Shown in pieces: positions 16,446 through 38,240 of a DNA stretch of 60,966 nucleotides. The stretch's first letter is position 1. Every line of letters begins with the position of its first letter. The position numbers and the translations under genes were made by a program. The notes under the pieces were generated by a model. It was not told the DNA's origin. It made no database searches and worked only from the letters and a program-made list of their open reading frames with translations. Source of the DNA: Campylobacterota bacterium (GTDB lineage Bacteria > Campylobacterota > Campylobacteria > Campylobacterales > Hydrogenimonadaceae); the NCBI GenBank assembly GCA_013153475.1, contig JAADEJ010000073.1, forward strand, positions 1 through 60,966, read 5' to 3'.

Positions 16446-16531
<86 letters not shown>

Positions 16532-19619: not shown

Positions 19620-19626
19620 GGGTGCT

Positions 19627-19632: not shown

Positions 19633-19638
19633 GCCGAG

Positions 19639-21049: not shown

Positions 21050-21090
21050 AGTATAGCCCAATTGCTTCCAAATAGCAAGCCCGCTATAAT
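21050..21090. promoter_or_regulatory. Overlapping divergent sigma70 promoters (rhlE / FAH operon)
   Basis: - strand TTGCTA-17-TATACT (21078-21050); + strand TTGCTT-17-TATAAT (21062-21090). Confidence 0.7.
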
Positions 21091-21096
21091 ACGGCC

Positions 21097-22112: not shown

Positions 22113-22855
22113 CCGTTCTGTTTGCCCCCAGCGAGAGCAAACGCCCCGGCGGCGACCTCCCGCCGATCAATCGGGAAGCCTTCTGCCTTCCCCCACTGTT
22201 TCCCAGGCGGCTTGAAGCCCTCAAAGCCTACGACACTTTCATCAAAAAGGCCGATACCGCCGGGCTTAAAAAGCTCTTTGGCCTCAAAAAAGCGGAAGAG
22301 ATCGCCCGCTATCGCGCCATCGACATTTTCAGCGCCCCCACCATGAAGGCCGTGGCGCGCTACAACGGGGTCGCTTATACCCACCTGGCGTACGAGACGC
22401 TTGACAAGCGGGCCCAAACCTATGTGGATGACAACCTCATCATCTTCTCCAACCTCTTTGGCCCGGTCTGCGCCAAAGACTCTCTTCCCGATTACAAGCT
22501 CAAACAGGGTGAGCGCCTCGGCGATTTTGTGCCGGAGCGGTTCTATCGGGCGCACTTCACCGACGCGTTGACGGCGTATCTCAAGGCCCGGGGCCCGGTG
22601 GTGGATCTTCGGGCGGGCTTTTACGAAAAGTTCTACCGCATCCCATTGCCCCATATCACCATGAAGTTTCTCAAAAACAACAAAGCCGTCAGCCACTGGG
22701 CCAAAGCCTACCGGGGAATCGTTTTGAAAGAGATGGCCGACAATAATATTCAAAACGAAGCGGATTTAAAAGCCATGGATATAGAGGGCCTTGCCGTCAA
22801 AGAGATCAGGGAGGGGGCGTTAAAAAAAGAGATTGTCTACGAGATTGTCTCATGA
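22109..22855 (+). CDS. yaaA: YaaA (UPF0246) peroxide stress/DNA-binding protein
   Basis: LFAPSESK, AVARYNGVAY, SNLFG, YKLK, VSHWAKAYRG. Confidence 0.88.
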   Translation: MTVLFAPSESKRPGGDLPPINREAFCLPPLFPRRLEALKAYDTFIKKADTAGLKKLFGLKKAEEIARYRAIDIFSAPTMKAVARYNGVAYTHLAYETLDKRAQTYVDDNLIIFSNLFGPVCAKDSLPDYKLKQGERLGDFVPERFYRAHFTDALTAYLKARGPVVDLRAGFYEKFYRIPLPHITMKFLKNNKAVSHWAKAYRGIVLKEMADNNIQNEADLKAMDIEGLAVKEIREGALKKEIVYEIVS

Positions 22856-23616
22856 GTTGCGAAACCCTTCCTGCCGATTCCATAGATTTTTGTATGCTCG
22901 ATTACGCATGCAGTTACCTGCCCGAGCAGAAGACCCGTATGTACTACCGCTATATGCGCCACGCTTCCAAAACAGAGGCAAGTGCGTTGGTGCGCCGGGG
23001 GTGGCGGCGGTTCGGGTGTTACTTTTTTCACCCCATCTGCGCCCGCTGCAACGCCTGCAAAAACCTGCGAATCGACGCGCAAAACTTTCATCCCAGCCGT
23101 TCCCAGAAACGGGTGATGAAAAAAAACCGCGCCACCATGCTCTATATCCGCAAGCCCTCCATGACCAGGGAACACCTTGAGCTCTACAACCGTTTCCATG
23201 AGTACAAAAGCGGGGTTTCGGGATGGAAATATACCCCCATCACCCCGCAACACTACTATGAAAACTTCGTAGACGGCGCCCATGATTTCGGCAAAGAGGT
23301 GCTCTACTTTATTGATGACAGACTGGTGGGCGTGGACCTGATCGACCTGACCGACGACGGGATCAGTTCGGTCTATTTTTTTTACGATCCCGACTACGCC
23401 AAATTCTCCCTGGGGGTCTACTCACTCTTGATGCAGATCCACTTTGCCCGCCAGATGGGCCTGCGCTGGATCTATCTGGGCTACTGGGTGGACGGGTGCG
23501 GGAGCTTTGCTTATAAGATGGATTACAAACCGATGCAGATACTGGAAGGGTTTCCCCCATTGGAGGAGGAGCCGGCGTGGCGGCCTATTGGGCCAACGCC
23601 GTACGAATCGTCTTGA
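22852..23616 (+). CDS. Arginyl/Asp-Glu-leucyl tRNA-protein transferase (Ate/Bpt)
   Basis: CSYLP, GWRRFG, PICARCNAC, SSVYFFYDPD, SLG, YLGYWV. Confidence 0.92.
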   Translation: MSCETLPADSIDFCMLDYACSYLPEQKTRMYYRYMRHASKTEASALVRRGWRRFGCYFFHPICARCNACKNLRIDAQNFHPSRSQKRVMKKNRATMLYIRKPSMTREHLELYNRFHEYKSGVSGWKYTPITPQHYYENFVDGAHDFGKEVLYFIDDRLVGVDLIDLTDDGISSVYFFYDPDYAKFSLGVYSLLMQIHFARQMGLRWIYLGYWVDGCGSFAYKMDYKPMQILEGFPPLEEEPAWRPIGPTPYESS

Positions 23617-24100
23617 AAATTGTCTCAAACTCGCTTGGGGGAATCTTGCCCGCTTTGTAGTAGAGCACTTTACCCTCTTTGGAGATGACGGCAAAGTTGG
23701 CGTCATCGTCGGCCATACCCCATACCTTGACCCCCTTTTTGTGGAGATCTTTGACATAAACGGTATCGGGAAACTTTTTCTGTTTCGACTTCAACGCCGC
23801 GGCAATGGCAAAATTGGGCATCCAGGTCGCCGCCATATTCACAATCGCCACACTCCGGTAACCGCGACGGTCAAAGTGTTGGGCATGAAGGGCGTCGGCA
23901 AAGGCTTCGTTGAGATCTTTCTTATCGGGGTCCATATAAAAGATAACGGTCACCTTGCCAAGCAGTGTAGAAGAGTCAAAGGGCGTGCCGTCGGCTTTTC
24001 CCCCCTCATCTTGGGCAAGGGTCAACCGGGGAAGGGGTGCCCCGGTCTCCAGCGCATAGAGCGATAATGTCAACAGCAAAGCGCCAATCAGAGCCCTCAT
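23585..24100 (-). CDS. YtfJ-family / redoxin-fold exported protein
   Basis: Signal peptide, GKVTVIFY.DPD..DLN, AIVNMAATW. Confidence 0.7.
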   Translation of the reverse strand: MRALIGALLLTLSLYALETGAPLPRLTLAQDEGGKADGTPFDSSTLLGKVTVIFYMDPDKKDLNEAFADALHAQHFDRRGYRSVAIVNMAATWMPNFAIAAALKSKQKKFPDTVYVKDLHKKGVKVWGMADDDANFAVISKEGKVLYYKAGKIPPSEFETIFKTIRTALAQ

Positions 24101-26037
24101 GACGCTGAAATCTCCAGCGCTCTTTCGACCACCGCGTCGATGGTAAAGCCGAAGTGTTTAAAGAGATCGCCCGCCTTGCCGCTGGCGCCAAAACTCTCCA
24201 TACGCATCACCGCGTCGGCCAGCCGGTACCACTCCAAGCCGCTGGCGGCCTCGACGGCCAGGACTTTGGTGGCGGGATCGATGACCGCGTCGATATAGGA
24301 GCGGGGTTGCTCCAAAAAGAGTTCAAAACAGGGCACGCTCACCACGTTGGCCATCACCCCCTTCTCTTCCAGGTGACAACCGGCTTTGAGCGCCGTCATC
24401 ACCTCGCTTCCGGTGGCTACCAGCGTCAGGGTCGCGCCTTCGCGCCGTTTGATCAGGTAACCGCCCTTTTCGGGCGCGCCGTAGTCAACCTCTTTTTTGA
24501 GGGTTTTGAGTTTCTGGCGGCTGAGCACAAACCCGCAGGGGCGATCGGCTTGAAGTGCCACCTTCCAGCAGGCAACGTTTTCGCTCGCGTCGGCCGGGCG
24601 GAAGGTGTAAAAGCCCGGCAGGGCCCGGAACTGGCTGAGATGTTCGATCGGCTGGTGGGTCGGGCCGTCCTCGCCCACGCCGATACTATCATGCGTCCAG
24701 ACAAAAAAGTGCTTCAATCCCGACAGCGCCGCCACGCGTACCGCCGGTTTGAGGTAGTCGCTAAAGACAAAGAAGGTGGCGGTAAAGGGCAACAGCGGGC
24801 CGTAGGCGGCCATGCCGTTACCGATCGCCGCCATGGCGTGCTCACGGATACCGAAGTGGATATTCTTACCCTTCGGAAACTCGCCCATGCCTTTGAGCTC
24901 GGTCTTGTTGGAAGGGGCCAGGTCGGCACTGCCGCCCAGAAAGCCGGGCAGGGCTTTGGCGATGGCGTTGAGGATCTTGCCGTTACTGTCGCGGGTGGCC
25001 ACTTCGGCGCCCTCTTCAAACTCAGGCCAGACAATGGCGTCAAAATCAGGGTTTTCCAGCCGCGCCAGGGCTTCGTTTTGCTCAATGTAGGGGGTCTGCT
25101 TGAGCAGGTGGCGCCACTCCCTTTCGGCCAGCTCACCCTTTTCAACCGCACAGCGAAAACGCGCCAGCACGTCGTCGGGAACGTAAAAGCTCTCCTTCGC
25201 AGGAAAGCCCGCTACCTCTTTGGCCCGGGCAATCAGCTCTTCCCCCAGAGGCGCCCCGTGACTCTCATGAGAGCCCTGCATCTCCAGCGCCCCTTTGGCG
25301 ATCATGGTATGGGCGATAATGAGCACCGGCTTGTCCGCTGTTTTGGCCTCTTTGAGCGCGTTGTCGATCTGCGTATAGTCGTGGCCGTCAATCTCCAGCA
25401 CCTTCCAATCCTGCGCCTCGAACCGCAGTCGCACATCCTCGGTCCAGGCCAGCGACGTATCCCCCTCAATGGTGATACGGTTGGAGTCATAGATCAAAAC
25501 CAGGTTATCCAGGGCGTAACGGCCCGCCACGGCGCACGCCTCGTAGCTGATACCCTCCATCAAATCGCCGTCGCCGCAAAGGCAGTAGACGGTATGGTCG
25601 ATGATTTTGGCGGTTTCGGTATTGACCAGATTGGCGCAATATTTGGCGGCCATGGCCATACCCACGGCATTGGCCACCCCCTGCCCCAACGGCCCGGTGG
25701 TGATCTCCACCCCCGGCGTGTGGCCGTACTCGGGGTGGCCCGGGGTTTTGGATCCCAGCTGGCGGAAGTTTTTCAGATCTTCCAGGCTGACATCATACCC
25801 CCACAGATACAACAGCGAGTAGACCAGTCCCGTGGCGTGCCCGCCGCTAAAGACCAGCCGGTCACGGTTGAGCCACTTGGGGTTATTGGGGTTGTGTACC
25901 ATATGCTCGGAGAGCACCGTAGCGATATCGGCCAGTCCCATCGGCGCGCCGGGGTGCCCGCTGTTTGCCTTTTGAATCATATCCGCCGCCAAAAAGCGGA
26001 TCGTATCCGCCATCTTTTTCATCATTGCACTGTCCAT
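24097..26037 (-). CDS. tkt: Transketolase
   Basis: SGHPGAPMG, GDGDLMEG, HDSIGVGEDGPTHQP; start MDSAMMK. Confidence 0.97.
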   Translation of the reverse strand: MDSAMMKKMADTIRFLAADMIQKANSGHPGAPMGLADIATVLSEHMVHNPNNPKWLNRDRLVFSGGHATGLVYSLLYLWGYDVSLEDLKNFRQLGSKTPGHPEYGHTPGVEITTGPLGQGVANAVGMAMAAKYCANLVNTETAKIIDHTVYCLCGDGDLMEGISYEACAVAGRYALDNLVLIYDSNRITIEGDTSLAWTEDVRLRFEAQDWKVLEIDGHDYTQIDNALKEAKTADKPVLIIAHTMIAKGALEMQGSHESHGAPLGEELIARAKEVAGFPAKESFYVPDDVLARFRCAVEKGELAEREWRHLLKQTPYIEQNEALARLENPDFDAIVWPEFEEGAEVATRDSNGKILNAIAKALPGFLGGSADLAPSNKTELKGMGEFPKGKNIHFGIREHAMAAIGNGMAAYGPLLPFTATFFVFSDYLKPAVRVAALSGLKHFFVWTHDSIGVGEDGPTHQPIEHLSQFRALPGFYTFRPADASENVACWKVALQADRPCGFVLSRQKLKTLKKEVDYGAPEKGGYLIKRREGATLTLVATGSEVMTALKAGCHLEEKGVMANVVSVPCFELFLEQPRSYIDAVIDPATKVLAVEAASGLEWYRLADAVMRMESFGASGKAGDLFKHFGFTIDAVVERALEISAS

Positions 26038-26080
26038 CCGGTCAATCCTTGTTTTTATAAACGGTAAAGAGTAGATGCCC

Positions 26081-26950
26081 TTAACACCCACTCTTTGCCG
26101 TTTGACGATGCCGCGTAAGGTAGGGTGCCAGCAAACGCGCCAGCCCCTCCCTCAACGCAGGCGAGAAACGGGCCAACCGCTTTTCGATCTTCTCCACCAA
26201 CCCGTCGGCCCGCCGACAGCTCTCTTGGAGCCCAAACAGGTTCACGTAGCTGTTTTTCTGCCCGTCAACCCCGGTGGTTTTGCCCGCCTCCTCGGCGCTT
26301 TGGGTCGCGTCCAGGATGTCATCTTGAATCTGAAAAAGCAGGCCCACATCCAGGCCAAAATCGTACAGCTCCGCCTGAATCTCGGTGGAGAGCCCGGCGA
26401 TCACGCCCCCCATCTTCAGAGACACGGCGATCAGGCGACCCGTTTTGTACTCGTGCAGAAAATCGACCTGCTCGGGCGTCAGGCGCTCTCCTTCAAAACG
26501 GCAGTCGATCGCCTGTCCCAGCACCATGCCCCCGATGCCGCCGTTATAGGCCAGCTCACGCACCAGTGCCGTTTTCACGTCATCACGCAGTGGGGCCGTG
26601 GCGATCAGGTAAAAGGCGTGGGTATTGAGCGCGTCACCCACCAGCACCGCCGTCACCTCGTCAAAGCGCTTGTGCAGTGTCGGCTCTCCCCGGCGCAGAT
26701 CGGCGTTGTCCATCACCGGCAGATCGTCATGAATCAGCGAGTAGGTATGAAACATCTCCACCGCCAGCGCCACCGGGTAGGCCCCTTCAACCAGCAGGGG
26801 CGCGCAACTTCGCACCACCGTCAGCAAAAGCCCGGGACGAAACCGCTTGCCGCCCGCTGTCAGCATCGTTTTGAGCGCCGTGTCGAAGGTGGGGTGGAAG
26901 CTGGGGGCTTCGGGAAGGTGGGATTGCAGATAGGCTTCAAAATCTCTCAT
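26081..26950 (-). CDS. ispA: Geranyltranstransferase / polyprenyl synthetase
   Basis: GGKRFRP, SLIHDDLP.MD, RRG, FQIQDDILD. Confidence 0.93.
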   Translation of the reverse strand: MRDFEAYLQSHLPEAPSFHPTFDTALKTMLTAGGKRFRPGLLLTVVRSCAPLLVEGAYPVALAVEMFHTYSLIHDDLPVMDNADLRRGEPTLHKRFDEVTAVLVGDALNTHAFYLIATAPLRDDVKTALVRELAYNGGIGGMVLGQAIDCRFEGERLTPEQVDFLHEYKTGRLIAVSLKMGGVIAGLSTEIQAELYDFGLDVGLLFQIQDDILDATQSAEEAGKTTGVDGQKNSYVNLFGLQESCRRADGLVEKIEKRLARFSPALREGLARLLAPYLTRHRQTAKSGC

Positions 26951-26976
26951 GGCACCGGCTTTGAAATTTTGGGCGA

Positions 26977-27960
26977 TTATAGCCTAAAGGGACGCAAAAA
27001 AAACTGAAAACCCGCCCGCTCCCAAAGGAGTTTTCGGGGTTTTTTGCCCGCGACGGCCAGACGGCTCATCACCTTGCGCACCGCTTCGGCGTTGTCTACC
27101 CGCTCACCCTCCACCGCCAACAGTCGATCACCCGCCTTCAGCCCCGCCTTTTGCGCCTCTGAACCGGGCAGGAGGCTTTGAACGCGCAATCGGTCGTCAA
27201 AGCGGATGCCAAAACGCTCCAAAAAGGTATCGCTCACCCGGCCGCCGCCAAAACGGCGCATACAGCGGGCCGATATTTTAAGCGCCTTATCCCGGCGCGC
27301 CACCAGCACCCCTATGCGCTCCCCTTCCCGGCACCGGTCGATCCGGTCCATCGCCTCATAGGTATTGGGCGCTTTCATGGTCGCCAACCCCACCAGGCGG
27401 TCGCCCGGCAAAAAGCGGGTCTCGGCGAAGGGATCGACCCATTTGATCGTCGGTCGGCTCTTTGAGGCGTCCAGCCGCATCCCCAATGTGCCGTGGAAAG
27501 TGTCGTTTTTGAGCAGTCGGCGAATCATGGCGGCGTCATACCAGCGCCCTTTCGCGTCGCTGATGCCTGCCAGTCGGCAACAAAGCGCCATCAACGCCCC
27601 CTCTTCGCCCGGTTTGCCGGCCAGCTTTCCGGGCAGTAGCGCCACGGGGTAGGTACGCACCCTGGCCGGCTCCCTCTTGCCGCCCGCACAAAGCGCCAGC
27701 GGCGCCTCCCGCTCTTTTGCCAGCGGCAAAGGGCGTCCGCCGGGGGCGCGAAAAAGCACCAATCCCAGCATGATATCCCGCGCCTCGGCCGATTTGCCCG
27801 CCGGCAGATGGAGCGAAACAAAACGCCCCTTCGCCACCTCATAGGCCCAATGGCCGTCAAATAACTGAATACTTTTTGGGAAAAAACGGCTACACGATTC
27901 TGCCCACAGCGCAGAAAGAAAAAAGAGAGAAAAAGCGAGAAAGCGAAGGGGTCGCATCAC
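26977..27960 (-). CDS. Exported PDZ-domain protein
   Basis: Signal peptide, [26 protein letters not shown]; sits between ybaB and ispA. Confidence 0.8.
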
Positions 27961-28283
27961 CCCTGCCCGCCGCCGGCAAAGGGATTCATGCCGCCCAACG
28001 CGCTCATGGCGGCGTTTTTGCGGTTATCCTCCACCATCTTCATCACATCGTTGACGGCGGAGATCAGAAGAATCTGCAAAGCCTCTTTGTCCTCGAGCAA
28101 AGAGTCGTCAATCTCAATGTCAACCACCTCACCCTTGCCGTTGGCGGTCACTTTCACCAATCCGCCGCCGCTCTTGGCGGTAAGCTCGACCGACTCGGCC
28201 CGCTCTTCGATCTCCCTGGCCTTCTTCTGCGCCTCTTCCAGCAGTTTGGCCAGATCGCCCATACTGCCGAGTTCCTCGAACAT
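27957..28283 (-). CDS. ybaB: YbaB/EbfC nucleoid-associated protein
   Basis: [12 protein letters not shown]...[17 protein letters not shown]. Confidence 0.93.
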
Positions 28284-28651
28284 TACAGCTCCTCGTGCAC
28301 GGCTGCGATGGTGTTTTCGTGCTCGTTCATCAGCACGATGGTGGGCTTGTAGCTCTTTAGCTCTTCTTCCTCATAGGAGGCGTAGGCGACAATGATGATC
28401 TTGTCGCCCGGATGGGCCTTGCGCGCCGCCGCGCCGTTGAGACAAATATCGCCCTTGCCCCGCTCACCCCGGATGATGTAGGTGCTAAAGCGCTCCCCGT
28501 TGTTGATATTGAGAATCTCCACCTTCTGCCCTACCCGCATCCTGGCGGCGTCAAGCAGATCCTCGTCGATGGTGATGGAGCCGACATAGTTGAGGTTGGC
28601 GTCCGTCACCGTGGCGCGGTGGATTTTGGCATACAGCATCTCAATGCGCAT
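28283..28651 (-). CDS. panD: Aspartate 1-decarboxylase
   Basis: [31 protein letters not shown]. Confidence 0.97.
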
Positions 28652-28654
28652 GGT

Positions 28655-29032
28655 TTAGATCGCTCCGCTCATCTTCATGGCCTGCTCGGGAGAGAGGGGC
28701 TCATCCCAGGCTTCCGCCTCGATCATGAACTCCTCCACCGGCCGTCCGCCGATAATGTGTTCGTCGATAATGCGGTCGATTTTTTCTTTGGTCAGGTGCG
28801 CGTACATCACGTGTCCCGGCTCTACCAGCATCACCGGACCGTATTGACAGCGGTTCAGACACCCCGTGCGCACCGGCTGAACGGTAGCGATGAGCCCCTT
28901 TTCCATCAGCCGCTGGGCCAGGTGCTGAAAAATGTCACGGGTCTCGTTGGTGACACAACTGGGGCGAGGCATACCCGGAGGGGCCGATTGCTCGCACTTG
29001 AAGATGTAAAACGCCGGTTGAGGAATACCCAT
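28655..29032 (-). CDS. Thioredoxin-like [2Fe-2S] ferredoxin
   Basis: C-x12-C ... TGCLNRCQYGP, MY, IIDEHIIGG. Confidence 0.88.
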   Translation of the reverse strand: MGIPQPAFYIFKCEQSAPPGMPRPSCVTNETRDIFQHLAQRLMEKGLIATVQPVRTGCLNRCQYGPVMLVEPGHVMYAHLTKEKIDRIIDEHIIGGRPVEEFMIEAEAWDEPLSPEQAMKMSGAI

Positions 29033-29112
29033 ACCATGCTCCTTAATTCAGATAAATTTTCTCCAAATTATAATCTTCCCCTCTTAAGGGGTCTTGATAC
29101 CGATATTTTACC

Positions 29113-30405
29113 CTATTTTGACAAGCCTAACAGCTCGCGTATCACTTCCCTGTCATCAAACGGGATCTTTTGGCCGCCAATCTCCTGGTAGGTCTCATCC
29201 CCTTTGCCCAGCACCAGCAAAGCTTCCCCGGGTTGCAGGTCTGCCAACGCCTGCCTGATCGCCTCCCGCCGATCCACAATCTTAACCACCTTCTCCTTTT
29301 CATGGATCCCTTCGGCAATCTCGTCAATGATGCGGACCGGATCCTCGCTGCGGGGGTTGTCGCTGGTGAGGTAGATCTTTTTGGCCAGGCCCGCGGCGGC
29401 TGCGCCCATCTTCGGGCGCTTGGTGCGGTCCCTGTCGCCGCCGGCACCGAACACCACCCGCAATTCCTTCTCTTTCAGCGAGTCCAGCACCTGCCGAATA
29501 CCGTCTTCGGTGTGGGCGAAATCGACAATCACCAGCGGATCGTCGCTGATCTTTTCCATCCGTCCCGCCACGCCGCCGAAATTTTCGGCCGCCTCACAGA
29601 TATCGCCCAGATCCTCACCGGTGAGCAGATGAACCGCGGCGATGGCGGCGGTGATGTTGTAGAGGTTAAAGTGGCCCTGTAGCGGCGTCTCAAAGGTCGC
29701 CACCTCGTTAAAATGCTGAATCACGCCGCTGACCCCTCCGCCCAGGGTATAGGCCATCACCTTGTAGGTGGCAGGATTTTCAAGGGCGTAACCGTAGGCG
29801 TTTTTGGGGTTGAACTTCAGCGCTTCGTCATCCCGGTTGATCAGCTTTCTGCTCTCGTCGGAAAAGAAACGGCTCTTGACGGCCCGGTAGTTCTCCACCG
29901 TCTTGTGGTAATCAAGATGATCGCTGGTGACGTTGGTGTGCACTTTCAGTGAAAAGCGCAATCCGTCGATACGGTTTTGGTCAATGGCGTGGGAGCTCAC
30001 CTCCATCACAAAAAACTCCGCCCCGCGCTGTTTGGCCTCCCACAGATTGCGAATCGTCGCCAACACAGGCGGCGTGGTCAGCGACTTTTCCTCCAGCTTC
30101 TCGTCGTTGACAAAAAAGCCCCGTGTCCCCTGGAGCGCCGCCTTGTAATCCAGGTCAAGCAGTAACGAATAGATGGCCGCGGCGGTGGTGGTTTTGCCGT
30201 TGGTACCGCTGACGCCCACCACCTCCACATCCTCCAGTCCCAGCGAACGGATCAATTGGGCCGCTTCCACCAACCGCGCGCCCGCTTTGGCCGCCTCGTC
30301 GTGATAGGCGCGGTTGAGTTTGGTCGCCAAAAAGGCCCGATCCGGGCCCGCAGAGCGGCTGTCGTCGGTGACCACGCCGACATCACCCCCAAAATCGACG
30401 GTCAC
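29113..30405 (-). CDS. murE: UDP-MurNAc-tripeptide synthetase
   Basis: GTNGKTT, MEVSSH, DHLDYH, DFAHT, GAGGDRD, DNPR (DAP type). Confidence 0.96.
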   Translation of the reverse strand: MTVDFGGDVGVVTDDSRSAGPDRAFLATKLNRAYHDEAAKAGARLVEAAQLIRSLGLEDVEVVGVSGTNGKTTTAAAIYSLLLDLDYKAALQGTRGFFVNDEKLEEKSLTTPPVLATIRNLWEAKQRGAEFFVMEVSSHAIDQNRIDGLRFSLKVHTNVTSDHLDYHKTVENYRAVKSRFFSDESRKLINRDDEALKFNPKNAYGYALENPATYKVMAYTLGGGVSGVIQHFNEVATFETPLQGHFNLYNITAAIAAVHLLTGEDLGDICEAAENFGGVAGRMEKISDDPLVIVDFAHTEDGIRQVLDSLKEKELRVVFGAGGDRDRTKRPKMGAAAAGLAKKIYLTSDNPRSEDPVRIIDEIAEGIHEKEKVVKIVDRREAIRQALADLQPGEALLVLGKGDETYQEIGGQKIPFDDREVIRELLGLSK

Positions 30406-30983
30406 TTGCTCTCCTTCAGCTTATCGATCAGCTCCCTGATCTTCTCCTCGGCCGGAAAAGCCACCGCCGCCCCCTCGATGTAACGCAGCGCCATCTCGTC
30501 AAACCCGTTGTCCACCAGCCGGTTGATGAAATCGAGCAGATCCTCTTTTTCCGTGATCACCACGCGGGTAGAGAACATAATATCCTCAAAGGCACGCCGA
30601 AAACTGCCCCGCAGGGCCACCAACTCCTTGAAATCCTCGTAACCGATCCCCTCCGTCGGCTCCTCTTTCAAGTTGAGCGCCCCTTCAAGAATCTGTGAAA
30701 TCTTCTCCAACGTCCCGTCAAAGGAGTCGATCATCGACTCGATAATCGCTTCGGCCTCCTCGTTCTCTTCGCTCTTGAGCACCTGGTAATACTCAAAAAG
30801 CGCCTGTCCCTCTTCATCGTTTTCAATCGCGATATCGGTCAAAATGGCGCCGATTTTGGCCTCTTTGGAATCGGGATGGTCTTTCAAAACCAGCCCGTAA
30901 TGGCGCATCGCCTCTTCATACTCGCCTCTGTAAAAAGAGTTCTCGGCCAACTCCAGACGTTTTTGCAGTTGCGTCTCTTTCAT
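30402..30983 (-). CDS. Conserved hypothetical TPR-like acidic protein
   Basis: N-terminal TPR-like AENSFYRGEYEEA; between nifU and murE. Confidence 0.75.
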   Translation of the reverse strand: MKETQLQKRLELAENSFYRGEYEEAMRHYGLVLKDHPDSKEAKIGAILTDIAIENDEEGQALFEYYQVLKSEENEEAEAIIESMIDSFDGTLEKISQILEGALNLKEEPTEGIGYEDFKELVALRGSFRRAFEDIMFSTRVVITEKEDLLDFINRLVDNGFDEMALRYIEGAAVAFPAEEKIRELIDKLKESK

Positions 30984-30997
30984 CCTCTCTTTGACTC

Positions 30998-31276
30998 CTA
31001 ACCGATCTGGTCCCAACGATCTTCCATCCCAGACGGCACGTTCACCACCTCGATCTCGGGATGGATCTCAATCCGAATCTGCCGCTCCACACCGTACTTG
31101 AGCGTCTCTTGACTGCTGGCGCAACCCACACACGCGCCCTGTAACTGCACATAGACGCGTCCCTCCTTCACCCCAAGCAGTACGATACCGCCGCCGTCAA
31201 GGGCAAGGGAAGGACGAATCTTGTCAATCACCGCCGCCACGGCCGAAAAGAGTTCGTCGTCGGAAAACGGGATCAT
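30998..31276 (-). CDS. NifU/Nfu family Fe-S carrier
   Basis: IRPSLALDGG, LQGACVGCASS. Confidence 0.92.
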   Translation of the reverse strand: MIPFSDDELFSAVAAVIDKIRPSLALDGGGIVLLGVKEGRVYVQLQGACVGCASSQETLKYGVERQIRIEIHPEIEVVNVPSGMEDRWDQIG

Positions 31277-31385
31277 GGCGCGCTCCTCGTTGGGATGGGA
31301 AATCGCGCTAATCATAACAAAAAAGCGCTACTTTGGCAACAAAAAAAATTCAGGAAAGAAGAAGGTAGAAAAGGAGGGGATATTT

Positions 31386-31403
31386 CTTCCCCCGAAGGGG
31401 AAG
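31386..31403 (-). terminator. Hairpin at the end of the alpha operon
   Basis: CTTCCCC-TTCG-GGGGAAG just after the rplQ stop; no immediate U-tract. Confidence 0.4.
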
Positions 31404-31411
31404 CGAGAGGA

Positions 31412-31762
31412 TTATACCAGCTCGATAATCGCCATCTCCGCGGAGTCTCCGCGGCGCTGGCGTGTTTTGATGATACGGGTATATCCACCGTTGCGATCGG
31501 CATACTTGGGCGCGATCTCTTCCACCATCTTTTTGGTGGCTTTTTTGTCTTGCAGTTTGGCAAAAACGGCGCGATGCGCGTTAAAATCGCCTGCTTTGGC
31601 CCGGGTGACCATCTTCTCGAATACGCTGCGAAGCGTCTTGGCCTTGGCCAGCGTCGTTTCGATCCGACCGTGCTCGATCAGAGCGATCGAAAGGTTTTTA
31701 AGCAAAGCAGCGCGATGAGAGGAGGTACGGCTCAGTTTGCGATATCCATGTCGATGTCTCAT
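31412..31762 (-). CDS. rplQ: 50S ribosomal protein L17
   Basis: [24 protein letters not shown]. Confidence 0.98.
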
Positions 31763-31767
31763 CGTCT

Positions 31768-32784
31768 TTATCCTTCGTTGGTTTGGTTTTTATGCGATTC
31801 GATGCGGTTTTTGAGTTGCTCGGCCGCCTCGTCGTCCAGTTCGGTATCGACGGGGAAACCCGCCTCTTCCAGTTTCGCTTTGATCTCTTCCAGCGATTTT
31901 TTGCCCAGGTTCTTGATCTCTTTGAGTTCGTTTTCGCTCATCAGAACCAGTTCACCGATAAACTTGATACCGGCACGCTCCAAAGAGTTGAAGCTTCTGG
32001 CGCTCAGGCCCAGGGCGTCGAGGCCTTGCATCAGTTTTTTGACAATCGGCGCCTCTTCGGTCTTGGCCGCGGTATCGGCGGCCACGTCGATGTCAAGAAT
32101 ATTGTTGAAGACACTCATCTGGCGATACATCACCTCGATGGTGTGTTTAAACGCCGTCACCGGGTCGATCTGCCCGTCGGTCTCGATATCGAAAACGATC
32201 TTCTCGTAGTTGGGATTGTCCTCAACCAGCATATTCTCGATGGTGTAGTTGGCGGCACGCACCGGCGTAAAGAACGCATCCAGCGCGATGTAGCCTTCCG
32301 GTAACGCGTCGCGCAGATCTTCACTGGGCACATAGCCGATACCCTGATGAATGAGAATACTGAAGTTGAGTTCGGCGTCTTCGTTGAGGGTGGCCAGAAA
32401 ACCGTCGGGCGTAACCACTTCCACCTGGTCGTTGGCCAGGTCGGCGCCGGTAATCTCCATCGGGCCGCTGAAGCTGTAGCTCACTTCCACCTCTTTCTCA
32501 TCTCCCTTGATTTTAAATCGCAGGTTCTTGAGATTGATGATGAAAACCGCCACATCCTCAAGCATACCGCGGATGGAATCAAATTCGTGCGAGGCCCCTT
32601 CGATTTTGATGCCGATCGGCGCGTATCCGATGGTGCTGCCCAACAGCAGCCTGCGGATCGGATGGGCCAAAGAGACCGCGTACCCCGTCTCGAAGGGGTA
32701 GGCGACAATGCGCATCCGGTTCTCTCCGGTCTGCTCGATCTCGACCTCGCTCGGCATAAAGGGTGATGTTTTGATTCGTTTCAT
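31768..32784 (-). CDS. rpoA: RNA polymerase alpha subunit
   Basis: [31 protein letters not shown]. Confidence 0.97.
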
Positions 32785-32804
32785 GGGCAACTCGCTTATG
32801 GGTT

Positions 32805-33431
32805 TTATTTGCTGTAAAGCTCGACGATCAGACGCTCTTCTACAGGAATAACGACCTCTTCACGTTCGGGGATCCGGGTAAAGATGCCGAATACTTTGTC
32901 GTGATCCACGTCAACCCACGGGGCGATACCGGTTTGACGGGTCAACTCCATGGCCCGCTGGATCTGCGGATTGTTTTTACTCTTTTCGCGAATCTCGATC
33001 TTCTGACCGGGTTTGACGCGGTAGGAGGGAATGTTGACCCGTTTGCCGTCAACAAGCACGTGACCGTGGGTTACCAATTGGCGTGCAAACGCGCGGGTCG
33101 TGGCAAATCCCATCCGATAAACCACGTTGTCCAGCCGGCGCTCCAGCAGGGCGATCAGGTTCTCCCCGGTGTTGCCGTCCATGCGGCTGGCGTCTTTGAA
33201 AAGTCGGCGGAATTGCTTCTCCGCGACACCGTACATATACTTGGCTTTCTGTTTCTCGCGCAGTTGCAGGCCGTACTGGCTGATTTTCGCGCGTCTTTGT
33301 CCATGCTGACCGGGTGCGTAGGGGCGTTTGTCCAGGGCGCTCTTGCCCGCCAGACGTCTTTCACCCTTGAGTCCGAGACTCACACCCAGGCGGCGTTCGA
33401 TCTTCTCTACAGGTCCTCTATATCGTGCCAT
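32805..33431 (-). CDS. rpsD: 30S ribosomal protein S4
   Basis: [18 protein letters not shown]. Confidence 0.98.
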
Positions 33432-33440
33432 CTCGTCCCC

Positions 33441-33833
33441 TTATACTCGTCGTCGTTTCGGCGGTCTACAGCCGTTATGCGGAAGCGGTGTGATATCTTT
33501 GAACCACATCACGCGAATGCCCTCAATAGCGCCGACACTCTTTACAGCCGTTTCGCGGCCGCTGCCGGGGCCCTGCACTTTGATGCCCACCTCTTTGATG
33601 CCGTGTTCCATCGCTTTGGCCATGGCGTCTTCCACTGCCTGCTGGGCGGCGTAAGGGGTCGATTTTTTGCTACCTTTGAAACCGAGTGAACCGGCACTGC
33701 TCCAGGCAATGACGTTACCGGCTTCGTCGGTGACGGTAATGACCGTGTTGTTATAGGTTGCCGTAATATAGACAACGCCACGGGCGATATTCTTTTTGAC
33801 GACCTTTTTTCTGGTTGCTTTACGTTTTGCCAC
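33441..33833 (-). CDS. rpsK: 30S ribosomal protein S11
   Basis: [29 protein letters not shown]. Confidence 0.98.
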
Positions 33834-33843
33834 GTGCTACTCC

Positions 33844-34212
33844 TTACTTGCTTGCCGCGCCGACGGTTTTACGCTTACCCTTGCGGGTGCGGGCGTTGGT
33901 CTTGGTTTTCTGACCCCGTACGGGCAGTCCGCGCCGATGGCGAAGGCCGCGGTAGTTCCCCAGGTCCATCAGAGCTTTGATGTCCATGGCCACTTTTTTC
34001 CGCAGATCCCCTTCCACCATGTAGTTTTCCTGGATCTCTTTGCGGATGGCCGCCGCCTCTTCTTCGCTCAGTTCATAGACGCGCTTGTCATAGCTGATAC
34101 CGGTCGCGTCCAGAATTTTGCGGGATGTGGTGAGGCCGATGCCGTAGATGTATGTCAGCGCATACTCCATCCGTTTCTTCTTGGGAAGATCAACACCTGC
34201 AATACGTGCCAT
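33844..34212 (-). CDS. rpsM: 30S ribosomal protein S13
   Basis: [25 protein letters not shown]. Confidence 0.98.
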
Positions 34213-34215
34213 CTT

Positions 34216-34329
34216 TTATCCTTGTCTCTGTTTGTGTTTGGGGTTGACACAGATGACGCGAACAATGCCTTTGCGTTTGATGATCTTGCATTTGTCGCAC
34301 ATCTTCTTAACCGAAGGTCTGACTTTCAT
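34216..34329 (-). CDS. rpmJ: 50S ribosomal protein L36 (Zn type), 37 aa; not in ORF track
   Basis: Manual translation [37 protein letters not shown]. Confidence 0.98.
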
Positions 34330-34746
34330 TATTGACTCCTTTACACGCCAAAACGGCAAAGCCGCTTTGACTACGATGACTCTGCGTCCGCTTCGGCAGC
34401 GGGCCCGCCGCGCTGGCGCGGCTTCGATGAAAGGCGCTTCGCTTTTTCATCAGTAGAGGCGAAACATGCCTCTTATGGGACAGACACAGAGCAACGCATA
34501 CCTGTAAACCTTGAGCGACTGTAAAGAAACAGCAAGAAGCGGTACATACGCCGTGAAAGCGACGGTCTGCCCGCTCCCCGCTACCTGTTACCCGCTCAAA
34601 AAACCGCCTTCGCGGTTTTGCACTGAACAACAAACCCAAAATTTTGGAATTTGTCCCCGAAACAGGTTTGGCGAATGTCTGCCAAACCGACCCTTGCATA
34701 AGCAGTGCGCCTTATGCAAAACTCCTTCACGTAGATGGAAAAGGGG
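34330..34746 (-). ncRNA. Putative large structured leader RNA of the rpmJ-alpha operon
   Basis: About 10 stems, including a 16-bp G.U-rich helix and an 11-bp long-range helix; no credible ORF; promoter just upstream. Confidence 0.6.
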
Positions 34747-34751
34747 ATGGA

Positions 34752-34763
34752 ATGATACCTTAA
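34752..34763 (-). promoter_or_regulatory. Promoter (ttaaggTATCAT) just downstream of the infA stop
   Basis: -10-like TATCAT at 34757-34752 with an epsilonproteobacterial-type TTAAG upstream. Confidence 0.55.
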
Positions 34764-34776
34764 GCCAACTTACAGG

Positions 34777-34995
34777 TCACTTATACCGATAGGTTATGCG
34801 ACCTTTGTCGAGGCTGTAGGGCGTCAACTCCACTTTCACCCTGTCACCGGGAAGGATTCGGATATAGTGCATACGCATCTTGCCGGCGATATGACACAAA
34901 ATCACGTGCCCGTTGTCCAACTCCACCCGAAAGGTCGCGTTGGGCAGGGCTTCGATCACCTTGCCGTCAATCTCGATTACATCATCTTTTGCCAT
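34777..34995 (-). CDS. infA: Translation initiation factor IF-1
   Basis: [27 protein letters not shown]. Confidence 0.98.
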
Positions 34996-35004
34996 TTTCT
35001 CTCC

Positions 35005-35763
35005 TTAGGGTTGCGAAAGTATTTCCGCTTTGCCGTCAATGACGGCCACCGTATGTTCATAGTGGCTGGTGCGTTTGCCGTCTTCGCTCACCACCGACCA
35101 CTTATCCTCCAAAATCCTGGGCACGCCGCTCTTTTGGCAGATCATCGGCTCAATGCAAAAGACCATGCCGTTTTTGATTTTGGGCCCGCTCTTGGGTGAG
35201 CCGTGTTCAAGATAGTTGGGGATCTCCGGCTCCTCGTGGGGCTTGCGCCCGATACCGTGCCCGCAAAAGTTGAGCAAAGGCTTATATCCCCGCCCTTCGA
35301 TAAAACGCTGAAGTTCCAGGCTGAGCTCTTTGAAGCGCAATCCGGGTTTGATCACGTCAATGGCGTGATAAAGGGCCTCTTTGGCGCACATGATCAGTCG
35401 TTCATCTTCCTCGCTGACACCGCCGATCGGCATGGTGACGGCCGCGTCACCGTACCAGCCGTTTACCTCGGTACCGATATCCAGCCCCAGGATATCGCCC
35501 TCTTTGACAACCGTATCGTCGGGAATACCGTGGATAATCACTTCGTTCAAAGAGGTGCAGACGGCGGCGGGAAAACCGTAGAGGCCTTTGAAGGAGGGGC
35601 GGGCACCCTGTTTGCGCAAAAAGGCCTCACCCATGGCGTCGATCTCTTTGAGTGTCATGCCGGGTTTGACACTCTCTTGCAAATAGGCGAGGGTCTCGCC
35701 CACAATGCGGTTGGCGACACGAAGTTTTTCGATGTCGCCCCGCTTGCGGATGGCAATACCCAT
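35005..35763 (-). CDS. map: Methionine aminopeptidase type I
   Basis: HGIP, D...D, CGHGIG..PHEEP, IEPM, HYEHT. Confidence 0.97.
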   Translation of the reverse strand: MGIAIRKRGDIEKLRVANRIVGETLAYLQESVKPGMTLKEIDAMGEAFLRKQGARPSFKGLYGFPAAVCTSLNEVIIHGIPDDTVVKEGDILGLDIGTEVNGWYGDAAVTMPIGGVSEEDERLIMCAKEALYHAIDVIKPGLRFKELSLELQRFIEGRGYKPLLNFCGHGIGRKPHEEPEIPNYLEHGSPKSGPKIKNGMVFCIEPMICQKSGVPRILEDKWSVVSEDGKRTSHYEHTVAVIDGKAEILSQP

Positions 35764-37025
35764 CAGAGCCCTACCGCGCTGAGCGTTTCATATTTGCTCA
35801 TGTAGATCTGGGCTTCGATCTTTCGCATGGTATCCAGGGCCACCTGCACCACGATCAGCACCGCGGTGCCGCCGAAGTAGAAGGGAACCCCCATGCTCTT
35901 GACCAAAACCCAGGGAAGCGTGGAGATGATGGCCAGGTAGATCGCCCCCCAGAAGGTCAGGCGACTGGCCACTTCGTTCAAAAACTCCGCCGTACTCTCA
36001 CCGGGCCGTACGCCGGGAATAAAGCCGCCCTGGCGTTTGAGGTTGTCGGCGATATCCTTGGCGTTAAAGACAATGGAAGCATAGAAGTAGGCAAAGAAGA
36101 TTACCAACAGGAACATCATGATGTTGAAGGTGTAACTGTTGGGGTTGAGAAAATCGGAAATTTTCTGGATGATCGGGTTGGTCGATGCCTGCAGAATAGT
36201 GCTGGGGAACATCAAAATCGCTGAGGCGAAGATGGGCGGAATAACGCCTGAGAGGTTCAGCTTGATGGGAATATAGTTCATCACCCGCTTGTTCTGGTTT
36301 TGCATCATCACCTTGCGCGAATAGCTCACCGGCACCCGCCGTTCCCCCAGTTCCACATAGATAATGAAGCCGACGGTGGCGATGATGATGGCAAGAATCG
36401 CCAACACGACCAGGAAGTTGAGCTCACCGGTGTTGACCAGGTTGATCGTTCCGCCGATGGCGGTAGGAATGGAGCTCACAATTCCGGCGAAGATAATGAG
36501 CGAGATACCGTTGCCCACACCCCGCTGGGTGATCTGCTCACCGATCCACATCAAAAGCATTGTACCCGTCAACATCGAAAAGGCCGCCATAATGATGAAT
36601 GTGGTCGAGTCGATCATGATGGCGCTCTCACCGCCCCGGCCTGTCAGGCTTTGCAGTCCGATGGCCACACCCACGGCCTGAACCAGCGTAATGGCGATGG
36701 TGGCGTAGCGGATGATCTGCATATACTTGGTCATACCGTCACGCTCTTTTTTCATTTTGGCCAATTCGGGAAAGGTTGCGGCGAGAAGTTCCATAATAAT
36801 GGAGGCGGTGATATAGGGCATGATACCCAGGGAGATGATACTCAGGCGCCGGACGGCGTTACCGCTGAACATATTGACCATGCCCAGGGCGTTGTTGGCG
36901 TTGGAATCGAAAAACTCTTTGATGACATCCACGTTGACACCCGGAACCGGCACGTAGGCCAGAATCCGGTATGCCAACAAAAATCCCAGCGTAATGAGGA
37001 TTTTGTTGACCAATGACTTTGTCAT
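35763..37025 (-). CDS. secY: Preprotein translocase SecY
   Basis: LGIMPYITASII, GVGNGISL, IPGVRPG. Confidence 0.98.
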   Translation of the reverse strand: MTKSLVNKILITLGFLLAYRILAYVPVPGVNVDVIKEFFDSNANNALGMVNMFSGNAVRRLSIISLGIMPYITASIIMELLAATFPELAKMKKERDGMTKYMQIIRYATIAITLVQAVGVAIGLQSLTGRGGESAIMIDSTTFIIMAAFSMLTGTMLLMWIGEQITQRGVGNGISLIIFAGIVSSIPTAIGGTINLVNTGELNFLVVLAILAIIIATVGFIIYVELGERRVPVSYSRKVMMQNQNKRVMNYIPIKLNLSGVIPPIFASAILMFPSTILQASTNPIIQKISDFLNPNSYTFNIMMFLLVIFFAYFYASIVFNAKDIADNLKRQGGFIPGVRPGESTAEFLNEVASRLTFWGAIYLAIISTLPWVLVKSMGVPFYFGGTAVLIVVQVALDTMRKIEAQIYMSKYETLSAVGL

Positions 37026-37027
37026 GG

Positions 37028-37426
37028 TTATTTTCCGCTGGTGGTGATTCGCTCGTCTTTGATTTTGGCGGCAAGCTCGCGGGCTGCTTTGCCGATCAAT
37101 TTAACGCGCTTGTGCTGGCCCTTGATCTTGTGAACGGTCGCAAGGGTCTCCATGGTGATCTCGTCCAGCTCGGCAATGGCGGGAAAGCGCTCGACGTTGA
37201 TAACGTAGGGCTTTTCCACCTTGGAGCGGAAGCCGACCTTCGGAAGACGGCGCTGGATGGGCTGCTGACCGCCCTCGAAACCGCGCTTTTGCTTGTAGCC
37301 GGTCCGCGCTTTTTGGCCTTTGTTGCCGCGGGTGGCCGTTTTGCCCATCCCGCTGCCCTGACCGCGACCGACACGTTTGCGGTTTTTGGTACTGCCGGGT
37401 GCGTTGGTAAGATTGTGCAGTGACAT
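37028..37426 (-). CDS. rplO: 50S ribosomal protein L15
   Basis: [18 protein letters not shown]. Confidence 0.97.
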
Positions 37427-37429
37427 CGC

Positions 37430-37876
37430 TTATCCTTTGATGCGGCTCAACGCCTCAACCGTGGCGCGAACCAGGTTGTTGGGATTGTTGGAGCCGAGAG
37501 ATTTGGCCAGAATATCCTTCACGCCGGCCAGTTCCAAAACGGGACGCGCGGCACCACCGGCGATAACCCCGGTACCTTCGCTGGCCGGTTTGAGCAGGAT
37601 GCGGCTGGCGTTGTATTTGTGCTCGATATCGTGGGCGATGGTCGAACCCTTGAGGTTCACCTTCACCAGGTTTTTGAACGCCTCGTCGATCCCCTTGCGA
37701 ATCGCGTCGGGCACCTCTTTGGCTTTACCCATACCGAAACCTACCGTTCCGTTGCGGTCGCCCACAACAACCAGAGCGGTAAACCGGAAGCGGCGACCGC
37801 CCTTGACGACTTTCGTGACACGGCCGATGTTGACGATGACCTCTTCGAAGTCTTCTCTGTTAATATTTTCCATCAT
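37430..37876 (-). CDS. rpsE: 30S ribosomal protein S5
   Basis: [20 protein letters not shown]; start 37876 or 37873. Confidence 0.97.
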
Positions 37877-37883
37877 GCTACCC

Positions 37884-38240
37884 TTACACCTTGATTCCGT
37901 TTTCACGCAAAGCGTCGGCGAATGCCGCGACCACACCGTGATAGATATAACCGTTGCGATCGAAAACCGCTGTCTCCAGACCCTTCTCTTTCATCTTGGA
38001 AGCCAGAGCCTCGGCCACTTTGGCCGCCGCCTCTTTGTTGGCTTTCAGCCCCATGGCGCGTCCGTCCGCGGCGGCCAGCGTGTGGCCGGCCGTATCGTCG
38101 ATCGCCTGGGCATAGATGTGTTTGTTGGAGCGGAAAATGGTGACGCGCGGCTTTTCGGCGGTACCGAAAATCTTGCCGCGTACGCGGGCTTTCCGTTTGG
38201 CGCGCTGCGCGTTTTTCTTCAAAAGCAGTGTTCTGTTCAT
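37884..38240 (-). CDS. rplR: 50S ribosomal protein L18
   Basis: [19 protein letters not shown]. Confidence 0.97.

What the first reader, a model, noticed from the sequence alone, without database searches (positions are those of the whole stretch)
34330..34776. ~415-nt highly structured non-coding RNA between infA and rpmJ: candidate large cis-regulator of the alpha operon or independent ncRNA
Seen: this is a 447-nt gap in a superoperon whose other junctions are overlapping or under ~25 nt. A -10-like ttaaggTATCAT lies just after the infA stop (TSS about 34746). On the mRNA (-) strand the sequence folds into many stems. 5' junction: UCCCC/GGGGA closes UUGCAUAAG/CUUAUGCAA (9 bp) and GGUUUGGC/GCCAAACC (8 bp). 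Next come CCAAAAUUUUGG and AAAACCGC-GAAG-GCGGUUUU. A long arm UUGAGCG/CGCUCAA (34599-34593/34517-34511) encloses a continuous 16-bp helix AGGUAGCGGGGAGCGG/CCGCUUCUUGCUGUUU (34586-34571/34542-34527). Its six G.U pairs would be A.C mismatches on the + strand, which points to selection on the transcribed strand. An 11-bp long-range helix CUCUGUGUCUG/CGGACGCAGAG (34491-34481/34390-34380) encloses AGAGGC/GCCUCU, GAUGAAA/UUUCAUC and GCCGCG/CGCGGC hairpins. It lacks RNase P (GAGGAAAGUCC), tmRNA and SRP signatures. Inference: a lineage-specific r-protein-responsive leader (S4 represses the E. coli alpha operon through a much smaller pseudoknot) or an undescribed large ncRNA.
Basis: partly seen in the sequence, partly recalled or inferred. 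Interest (0 to 1): 0.8.

Follow-up and report, generated by a model that had tools for sequence, protein, structure and literature searches.

The report
Pseudoknotted alpha-operon leader with repeat tail
The gap is not one 415-base RNA: its first ~125 bases are a pseudoknotted mRNA-leader motif shared across Campylobacterales (absent from Rfam) that likely lets a ribosomal protein, probably S4, control its own operon, and the remaining ~290 bases are a genus-variable patchwork of repeat-like hairpins.

Summary
It covaries across 11 families (21 of 24 pairs change on both sides), occurs once per genome (77 of 151 searched), follows rpmJ even where infA is absent, and fills the mapped 132-nt rpmJ 5' UTR of Campylobacter jejuni. 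In an independent scan 86 of 88 rpmJ-adjacent matches had the pseudoknot partner, which the pattern did not ask for. (2) A 290-nt tail that is 20-439 nt and mostly non-homologous across the genus, built from a degenerate 7-mer-repeat hairpin and a dispersed ~90-nt repeat. Best reading: an undescribed ribosomal-protein leader of the alpha operon, ligand most likely S4 (untested; no rRNA mimicry shown), pushed away from its ribosome-binding site by repeat insertions. This scan found the same core before in another Hydrogenimonas genome (e1-2635171).

The parts
34777..34995 (-). infA (IF-1), upstream gene; not needed for the motif
   Evidence: motif found upstream of rpmJ in 20 loci where no infA end lies within 900 nt
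34752..34757 (-). -10 box (TATCAT) of the inferred alpha-operon promoter; start site inferred at about 34746
   Evidence: same offset after the infA stop in 17 of 17 genus genomes; C. jejuni primary start site lies 6 nt after its TAAAAT box, 132 nt before rpmJ (PMC3656092 supplement rows)
34620..34746 (-). conserved ~125-nt pseudoknotted leader core (candidate ribosomal-protein leader)
   Evidence: model match 34615-34748; 94% mean identity in the genus against 52% at infA third codon positions
34654..34747 (-). closing stem P1, UCCCC 34747-34743 with GGGGA 34658-34654; partner and register differ between families
   Evidence: CCCC and GGGG kept in all 17 genus spacers; other families use other P1 pairings, covariation not counted
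34725..34728 (-). nearly invariant GAAG linker before P2
   Evidence: G 71, A 87, A 85, G 85 of 87 anchored sequences (the anchor was chosen on this word, so the figures are inflated)
34689..34724 (-). stem P2 (34724-34711 with 34702-34689), fixed length, frequent G.G at pair 3
   Evidence: 12 of 12 counted pairs change on both sides, 98.2% cells paired; span 36-37 nt in 65 of 87
34620..34708 (-). pseudoknot: P2 loop GCACUG 34708-34703 with CAGUGC 34625-34620
   Evidence: 4 of 5 pairs covary, 97.7% paired; 86 of 88 in an independent scan
34665..34688 (-). stem P3 (GGUUUGGC with GCCAAACC), stacked directly on P2, invariant GG/CC base
   Evidence: 5 of 7 pairs covary, 95.3% paired
34630..34654 (-). 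variable hairpin P4, genus-specific, absent in G017
34598..34619 (-). short hairpin with a U run right after the pseudoknot (terminator-like by eye, not called by the scan)
   Evidence: 0 terminators called; similar hairpin in 5 of 16 relatives
34511..34599 (-). long G.U-rich arm: degenerate 7-mer tandem-repeat hairpin
   Evidence: lag-7 self-match 17 of 25 against 5-10 at other lags except 14; cleaner 7-mer arrays at this place in G008 and G004; pairs not kept in register beyond G012
34380..34491 (-). 3' multibranch domain closed by the 11-bp helix; its 3' strand lies inside the dispersed repeat
   Evidence: 11/11 in G012, 10/11 in G008, 5/11 and 4/11 in register in G004 and G003 (a shifted 7-9 bp pairing is visible there by eye)
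34339..34430 (-). dispersed ~90-nt intergenic repeat of the genus, often ending just before a ribosome-binding site
   Evidence: 3 further copies in this genome (E<=0.01); dozens of matches to query 340-440 in relatives; contexts
34336..34341 (-). Shine-Dalgarno AAGGAG of rpmJ
   Evidence: sequence
31412..34329 (-). downstream operon rpmJ(L36)-rpsM(S13)-rpsK(S11)-rpsD(S4)-rpoA-rplQ(L17)

Best explanation
The first ~125 nt are a conserved, covarying, pseudoknotted RNA motif in the 5' leader of the rpmJ-rpsM-rpsK-rpsD-rpoA-rplQ operon that likely binds surplus ribosomal protein (S4 most likely) and would then damp expression of the operon, while the other ~290 nt are repeat-like insertions that vary across the genus. 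Shown: motif, covariation, single copy, position upstream of rpmJ, location inside a mapped 5' UTR in C. jejuni, and the mosaic tail. Inferred: a promoter after infA starts the mRNA at about 34746; P2 stacks on P3 and its loop docks on the CAGUGC strand to form a compact protein-binding body; in the common compact form this body ends 20-24 nt before the start codon, at the edge of the initiating ribosome's footprint, so bound protein would hinder or trap 30S initiation on rpmJ, with coupling passing the effect downstream. In this genus the tail moves the body 290 nt from the ribosome-binding site, so here repression must work at a distance (through folding, or through polarity and decay) or be weakened. 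Odds: composite anatomy 0.9; core is a functional RNA structure 0.97; r-protein leader 0.72; S4 the ligand about 0.5 overall.
For: Covariation on a 61-sequence, 11-family alignment: 97.3% cells paired, 21 of 24 pairs with changes on both sides, 0 of 500 shuffles as high, slid controls 34-51%. Independent test: a pattern without the 3' pseudoknot strand gave 119 loci; 88 have rpmJ within 250 nt, all titled Campylobacterota, and 86 of 88 carry the 4-bp partner against 1 of 22 non-Campylobacterota matches; in the 70 with GUG 17-27 nt before the start the variable pair is C-G 34, G-C 29, A-U 6, G-U 1. Whole-helix swaps in families f4, f6, f21. One match per genome in 77 of 151, directly upstream of rpmJ in all 25 whose rpmJ I had placed, and in 20 loci without infA. 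C. jejuni primary start site gives a 132-nt UTR in 4 of 4 strains, and genomes with that exact promoter sequence carry the motif in a 132-nt leader. Core 94% identical in the genus against 52% at infA third positions. S4 is the only operon protein with validated leaders elsewhere, the rule used in PMC7247131. Tail: 20-439 nt, no homology in 7 of 16 relatives; repeat copies elsewhere.
Against: No binding or repression data. No rRNA mimicry shown: GAAG, AACU, GCAC and GUGC occur in the 16S S4 region of a same-genus genome, but so do 37% of all 4-mers, and CCAC, ACUG and GUUGG do not; the GUAA word of Firmicutes and Fusobacteria S4 leaders is at no fixed column (at most 7 of 61). The Shine-Dalgarno is not part of any covarying helix, so no switch is visible. 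The core stays highly conserved while up to 439 nt from the start codon, which fits a steric block poorly, and folded tails do not bring the ends closer than shuffled tails do. rpsD follows rpmJ also in families that lack the motif, so gene order does not pick the ligand. Related genomes are not independent, many pattern hits are near-identical Campylobacter, and alignment A1 was trimmed using the pseudoknot complement and built from sequences that showed the motif. Tails do fold better on the mRNA strand in 15 of 16 genomes by z-score, so some selection on tail structure is possible.
Confidence: 0.7

Rival explanations
1. The core is a regulatory RNA that acts on transcription or mRNA fate (Rho-dependent or intrinsic termination, 5'-end stability) and so does not need to be near the ribosome-binding site; the ligand may still be S4 or may be another factor or small molecule.
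For: Core conserved at 94% though 20-439 nt from the start codon; leaders lengthened by up to about 140 nt also in other genera; a hairpin with a U run follows the pseudoknot here and in 5 of 16 relatives; S4 also acts in antitermination (PMC10931766 passage).
Against: The terminator scan calls nothing; compact leaders leave no room for a terminator and hold the pseudoknot at a tight 20-24 nt from the start codon, which points to translation initiation; an RNA-library contig runs across the hairpin (34514-34735), though it may be DNA-derived.
Confidence: 0.14
2. The core is a constitutive structure (translation enhancer, mRNA stabiliser or processing signal) with no feedback by ribosomal proteins.
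For: No alternative fold or Shine-Dalgarno pairing seen; no mimicry shown; the motif was not found in several families (f26 0 of 53, f16, f7, f15).
Against: Strict single-copy placement before a ribosomal-protein operon, invariant unpaired bases and fixed stem length suggest a binding surface; r-leaders are known to be patchily distributed (PMC7247131).
Confidence: 0.1
3. The whole ~415 nt is one large structured RNA, with the tail as functional domains.
For: z -6.6 with strand bias; tail z -5.7; the 11-bp closing helix and two inner hairpins persist in the 2-4 closest relatives.
Against: Spacer 174-598 nt in the genus; G009 has the core and a 20-nt tail; tail non-homologous in 7 of 16; its parts are a 7-mer array and a dispersed repeat; the 16-bp helix keeps only 6-11 of 16 pairs beyond the nearest relative.
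Confidence: 0.06

Closest known systems
E. coli alpha-operon leader, the S4 translational operator (Rfam RF00140 Alpha_RBS)
   Same: Pseudoknot in the 5' leader of the S13-S11-S4-alpha-L17 operon; S4 is encoded downstream.
   Different: There the pseudoknot includes the ribosome-binding site of rpsM (PMC10931766 passage); here it lies upstream of rpmJ and ends before the Shine-Dalgarno. No model match on the gap; a 17.1-bit sub-threshold match (cut-off 38) falls on the rpmJ-rpsM junction only.
Predicted S4 r-leaders of Fusobacteriales and Clostridia (PMC7247131)
   Same: Also directly upstream of the L36 gene of the same operon; the Fusobacterial one has a three-stem junction, the Clostridial one a 5' GAAA word.
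   Different: No conserved GUAA here, no Rfam match, a covarying pseudoknot not described for them in the text read, and a different phylum; that paper's table has no Campylobacterota motif and its supplements do not contain the words Campylobacter, Epsilonproteobacteria or rpmJ.
Mycobacterial rpsO (S15) pseudoknot leader
   Same: A leader pseudoknot sitting upstream of, not over, the initiation site, proposed to block ribosome binding (PMC10931766 passage).
   Different: Different operon, protein and sequence; a mechanistic analogy only.
Intergenic heptamer repeats and small dispersed repeats (e.g. TAACTGA arrays, PMC4679880, abstract only)
   Same: 7-mer arrays and short repeats lying just upstream of start codons, also of ribosomal-protein genes.
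   Different: Different unit sequence; here a degenerate purine-rich/pyrimidine-rich pair forms a hairpin, beside a ~90-nt genus-specific repeat. Likeness to REP or cyanobacterial small dispersed repeats is recalled, not tested.

Membership tests
ribosomal leaders (r-leaders), criteria of PMC7247131 | consistently upstream of ribosomal-protein genes, same strand | tested here: met
   25 of 25 placed model matches; 88 of 97 Campylobacterota pattern matches have rpmJ within the 250-nt flank, the other 9 could not be placed
ribosomal leaders (r-leaders), criteria of PMC7247131 | secondary structure supported by covariation | tested here: met
   (no phylogeny-aware test such as R-scape was available)
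ribosomal leaders (r-leaders), criteria of PMC7247131 | lies inside the 5' UTR given mapped start sites | tested here: met
   C. jejuni 132-nt UTR; for this genome only inferred from the -10 box
ribosomal leaders (r-leaders), criteria of PMC7247131 | binds an encoded r-protein and lowers expression | not testable with these tools
   needs binding and reporter assays
E. coli alpha-operon S4 operator (RF00140) | match to the Rfam model | tested here: not met
E. coli alpha-operon S4 operator (RF00140) | pseudoknot encloses the ribosome-binding site of rpsM | tested here: not met
   pseudoknot ends 20-24 nt (here 290 nt) before rpmJ
Firmicutes / Fusobacteriales S4 leaders | conserved GUAA mimicking 16S rRNA 5' of a stem | tested here: not met
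   GUAA at most 7 of 61 at any one column
Clostridia S4 leader | conserved GAAA near the 5' end, upstream of the L36 gene | tested here: inconclusive
   position matches; the word here is GAAG; figures of that motif could not be seen; no Rfam match (that the family is in Rfam is recalled)
large independent ncRNA (~415 nt) | conserved length and structure over the whole element | tested here: not met
REP / MITE-like dispersed repeat (34430-34339 only) | multiple dispersed intergenic copies | tested here: met
   4 copies in this genome, many in relatives, some in tandem
REP / MITE-like dispersed repeat (34430-34339 only) | terminal inverted repeats, target-site duplication or a cognate transposase | not tested
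   not examined

The most novel reading that the evidence does not exclude
The pseudoknotted core is a distance-independent switch: because it stays 94% conserved while repeat insertions push it up to 440 nt from the ribosome-binding site, it controls the alpha operon (four small-subunit and large-subunit proteins plus RNA polymerase alpha) at the level of transcription or mRNA fate, sensing S4 in its antitermination role or a small molecule, which would be a new control logic coupling ribosome and RNA-polymerase supply in Campylobacterales.
Probability: 0.12. Interest if true: 0.78.

Novelty: new variant of a known kind. Interest (0 to 1): 0.5.

Why it matters
No regulator of the alpha operon was found described for Campylobacterota in the searches made, although the group includes C. 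jejuni and dominant vent bacteria. A covarying, pseudoknotted leader with a mapped start site gives a direct target for binding and reporter tests, adds an independent structural solution for (probably) S4 recognition, and the genus offers a natural series of leader-to-start distances (20-439 nt) that can separate steric from long-range repression. It also corrects the size: high folding scores of long spacers in this genus come largely from repeats.

Tried and rejected
Rfam: no family on the leader in the window or in 22 other loci. Hidden ORF: the 130-aa frame 34699-34307 matches no NCBIfam family and long frames are not kept in G012, G008, G004. 16S mimicry by shared words: not above chance; a kink-turn reading of P1/GAAG fits families f23 and f24 by eye only, dropped. 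End-to-end shortening by folded tails: no better than shuffles, shorter than the shuffled mean in 5 of 16. Ligand from gene order: rpsD lies about 0.8-0.95 kb after rpmJ with or without the motif. Expression: three vent metatranscriptomes hold contigs over parts of the gap (34514-34735 with 1 difference; 34371-34517; 34346-34467), but contigs of 97% or more are scattered over the whole 18001-38000 control stretch, are unstranded and may be DNA, so they show neither start, strand nor level. A 70% look-alike of the repeat at 57640-57676 lies in what reads as coding sequence, not counted. Literature: 9 searches found no description; unseen supplements could hold one: the motif table of PMC8632094, which analysed C. 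fetus and A. nitrofigilis, and the whole supplement of PMC11109978. Rows left out of alignment A1: families f9, f13, f15, f18, f20, f21, f25, f6, genome G087, seven near-duplicates and all genomes without the motif.

Full report
Observation. The gap between infA (34995-34777) and rpmJ (34329-34216) is 447 nt, in a cluster whose other junctions from map to rplQ are 3-14 nt; the genes are map, IF-1, L36, S13, S11, S4, RNA polymerase alpha and L17. The mRNA strand folds at -185.3 kcal/mol, z -6.6, the other strand at z -3.1. Rfam 15 has no family on the gap. The organism is most likely a Hydrogenimonas: three of the four pattern matches most like the core are records with that genus name, the fourth is an unnamed Campylobacterales.

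The gap is composite. A DNA search of 61 genomes matched 20 of 21 genomes of the same genus and 1 of 39 others (a 26-nt hit). Only three relatives matched most of the length; fourteen others matched only the first 113-205 nt, and query positions 340-440 matched many places per genome. The infA-rpmJ spacer is 174-598 nt in the 17 genus genomes where both genes were in the locus. The first 65 nt of the core are 94.4% identical on average, against 51.9% at infA and 80.2% at rpmJ third codon positions; the tail after the core is 20-439 nt, and BLAST covers 100%, 63% and 46% of this genome's tail in three relatives, 14-33% in six (mostly the repeat) and nothing in seven.

The core. Upstream of rpmJ in 120 genomes of the order one motif recurs: a -10 box, a variable closing stem, CU-N3-GAAG, a stem P2 of fixed length, then with no spacer a stem P3 starting GG and ending CC, and further down a strand complementary to the P2 loop. 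In the window these are GAAG 34728-34725, P2 34724-34711/34702-34689, P3 34688-34681/34672-34665 and the pseudoknot GCACUG 34708-34703 with CAGUGC 34625-34620. On a sequence-only alignment of 61 leaders from 11 families RNAalifold finds P2 and P3 unaided; with the pseudoknot added, 97.3% of cells pair, 21 of 24 pairs change on both sides, 0 of 500 shuffles reach this and slid controls give 34-51%; the pseudoknot alone has 4 of 5 covarying pairs. These 61 were picked because they showed the motif and were trimmed at the pseudoknot strand, so I ran an independent test: a pattern holding P2, the loop CAC and P3 but not the 3' strand. The scan stopped at 119 loci (about 390 estimated). Of these 88 have rpmJ within 250 nt, all titled Campylobacterota (Campylobacter, Sulfurovum, Sulfurospirillum, Nitratifractor and unnamed ones), and 86 of 88 carry the 4-bp partner; of the other 31, nine are Campylobacterota (8 with the partner) and 22 are not (1 with it). 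Among the 70 with GUG 17-27 nt before the start codon, the variable pair is C-G 34 times, G-C 29, A-U 6, G-U 1 and never a mismatch. Many of the C-G cases are near-identical Campylobacter records. Families f4, f6 and f21 swap the whole helix for other complementary words.

Distribution. A covariance model of the nested stems found exactly one match in each of 77 of 151 genomes of the phylum: f11 59 of 60, f17 6 of 6, f23 4 of 4, f5 3 of 3, but f26 0 of 53, f13 0 of 6, f15 0 of 6, f9 1 of 6 (seed members included). All 25 matches whose rpmJ I had placed lie just upstream of it. With filters off, 46 of 90 rpmJ-upstream loci matched at E<=0.01, 14 of them outside the seed and 20 where no infA end lies within 900 nt, so the motif travels with rpmJ, not infA; none matched in f2, f6, f7, f8, f14, f15, f16, f22 or f26. 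Families f9, f13, f20 and f25 carry P2-P3 mostly without a clear pseudoknot. Published start-site maps give C. jejuni rpmJ a primary start with a 132-nt UTR in 4 of 4 strains, 6 nt after a TAAAAT box (PMC3656092, supplement rows); genomes with that exact promoter sequence have a 132-nt leader holding the motif, its pseudoknot ending 21 nt before the start codon.

The tail. After the pseudoknot comes a short hairpin with a U run (34619-34598), similar in 5 of 16 relatives but not called by the terminator scan. The long G.U-rich arm has a 7-base period (17 of 25 at lag 7) and is a cleaner 7-mer array in G008 and G004; 7-mer arrays also sit in or next to rpmJ leaders of families f8, f13 and f17. 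Its 16 pairs are kept 14 times in the nearest relative and 6-11 times in the next three. Positions 34430-34339 are a ~90-nt repeat with three more copies in this genome and many in relatives, some in tandem and often ending just before a ribosome-binding site. Tails of relatives, though unrelated in sequence, also fold well and better on the mRNA strand by z-score in 15 of 16 when ties are read as printed, with G015 and G005 the reverse cases being 2 of 16, so 14 of 16 strictly; this suggests that insertions survive when they fold on themselves, not that they form one RNA.

Mechanism. Shown are the structure, its place and the mosaic. Inferred is the function. A single-copy structured motif in the 5' UTR of a ribosomal-protein operon meets the comparative criteria for an r-leader (PMC7247131). 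S4 is the best guess because it is the operon's only protein with validated leaders elsewhere; S13, S11, L17 and L36 stay open, and gene order does not help. I found no mimicry of the S4 site (helices 16-18; key bases in PMC2665224 passages): several conserved words occur there, but so do 37% of all 4-mers. In compact leaders the pseudoknot ends 20-24 nt before the start codon, at the edge of the 30S footprint (general knowledge), which suggests hindrance or trapping of initiation, like the mycobacterial rpsO pseudoknot. Against this, the core stays conserved in this genus at up to 439 nt from the start codon, and folding does not bring the ends closer than in shuffled tails; this is the main open point and the basis of the transcription-level rival.

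Expression here is not shown: RNA-library contigs cover parts of the gap, but equally scattered contigs cover the 20-kb control.

Novelty. Not in Rfam; fails the defining tests of the E. coli and Firmicutes/Fusobacteria S4 leaders; not found in nine literature searches. Papers seen: PMC7247131 abstract, three of six parts of the body, supplement search and one supplement part; PMC6429828 passages and supplement search; PMC3656092 supplement rows, files 13-15 not searched; PMC4679880 abstract; PMC2665224 and PMC10931766 passages; PMC11109978 passages, supplement unreadable; PMC8632094 passages and part 1 of its supplement, which lists C. fetus and A. nitrofigilis among the genomes analysed but not the motif table. 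The motif could stand in those unseen tables. An earlier agent of this scan reached the same reading of the core in another Hydrogenimonas genome (e1-2635171), after I had formed mine; that is not independent support. Verdict: a real, probably undescribed leader of a known functional kind, a third the size claimed, with a repeat tail. Interest 0.5.

Noticed in passing
G000:C69:14358-14454, C55:3175-3267, C89:6798-6866; L019-L032: A ~90-nt genus-wide dispersed repeat (hairpin, constant middle, closing hairpin with a GGCUUUGCC-type loop), sometimes in tandem, often ending just before a ribosome-binding site; no description found in one search.
   Followed up: partly
L053, L074, L084, L146, L147, L124 (rpmJ leaders of families f17, f13, f8): Paired purine-rich and pyrimidine-rich 7-mer arrays forming long hairpins inserted in or beside the same leader in several families.
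   Followed up: partly
L006 (G001 spacer): The last 98 nt of the spacer, repeat plus Shine-Dalgarno, are duplicated in tandem.
   Followed up: no
L130-L135, L137, L140, L143-L149, L136, L129, L117, L121, L123, L128, L132 (families f9, f13, f20, f25): Variants with P2-P3 but mostly no pseudoknot; in f13 P3 shrinks to a few pairs and P2 can take a long insertion. Family f15 has a more distant look-alike that the model misses.
   Followed up: partly
L057, L060, L061, L071, L077, L078, L080 (f26); f7, f14, f16, f22 loci: Motif not found; many of these keep the -10 box at the same offset after infA with a 63-103 nt spacer, so the promoter outlasts the leader. Two f26 genomes have a different ~215-nt leader.
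   Followed up: no
window 34180-34254: Sub-threshold Alpha_RBS match (17.1 bits, E 0.35) at the rpmJ-rpsM junction, driven by the rpsM coding start.
   Followed up: no
window 14500-16647 and 54576-55103: Two tRNA clusters, 10 tRNAs; the assembly holds no 16S rRNA match.
   Followed up: no
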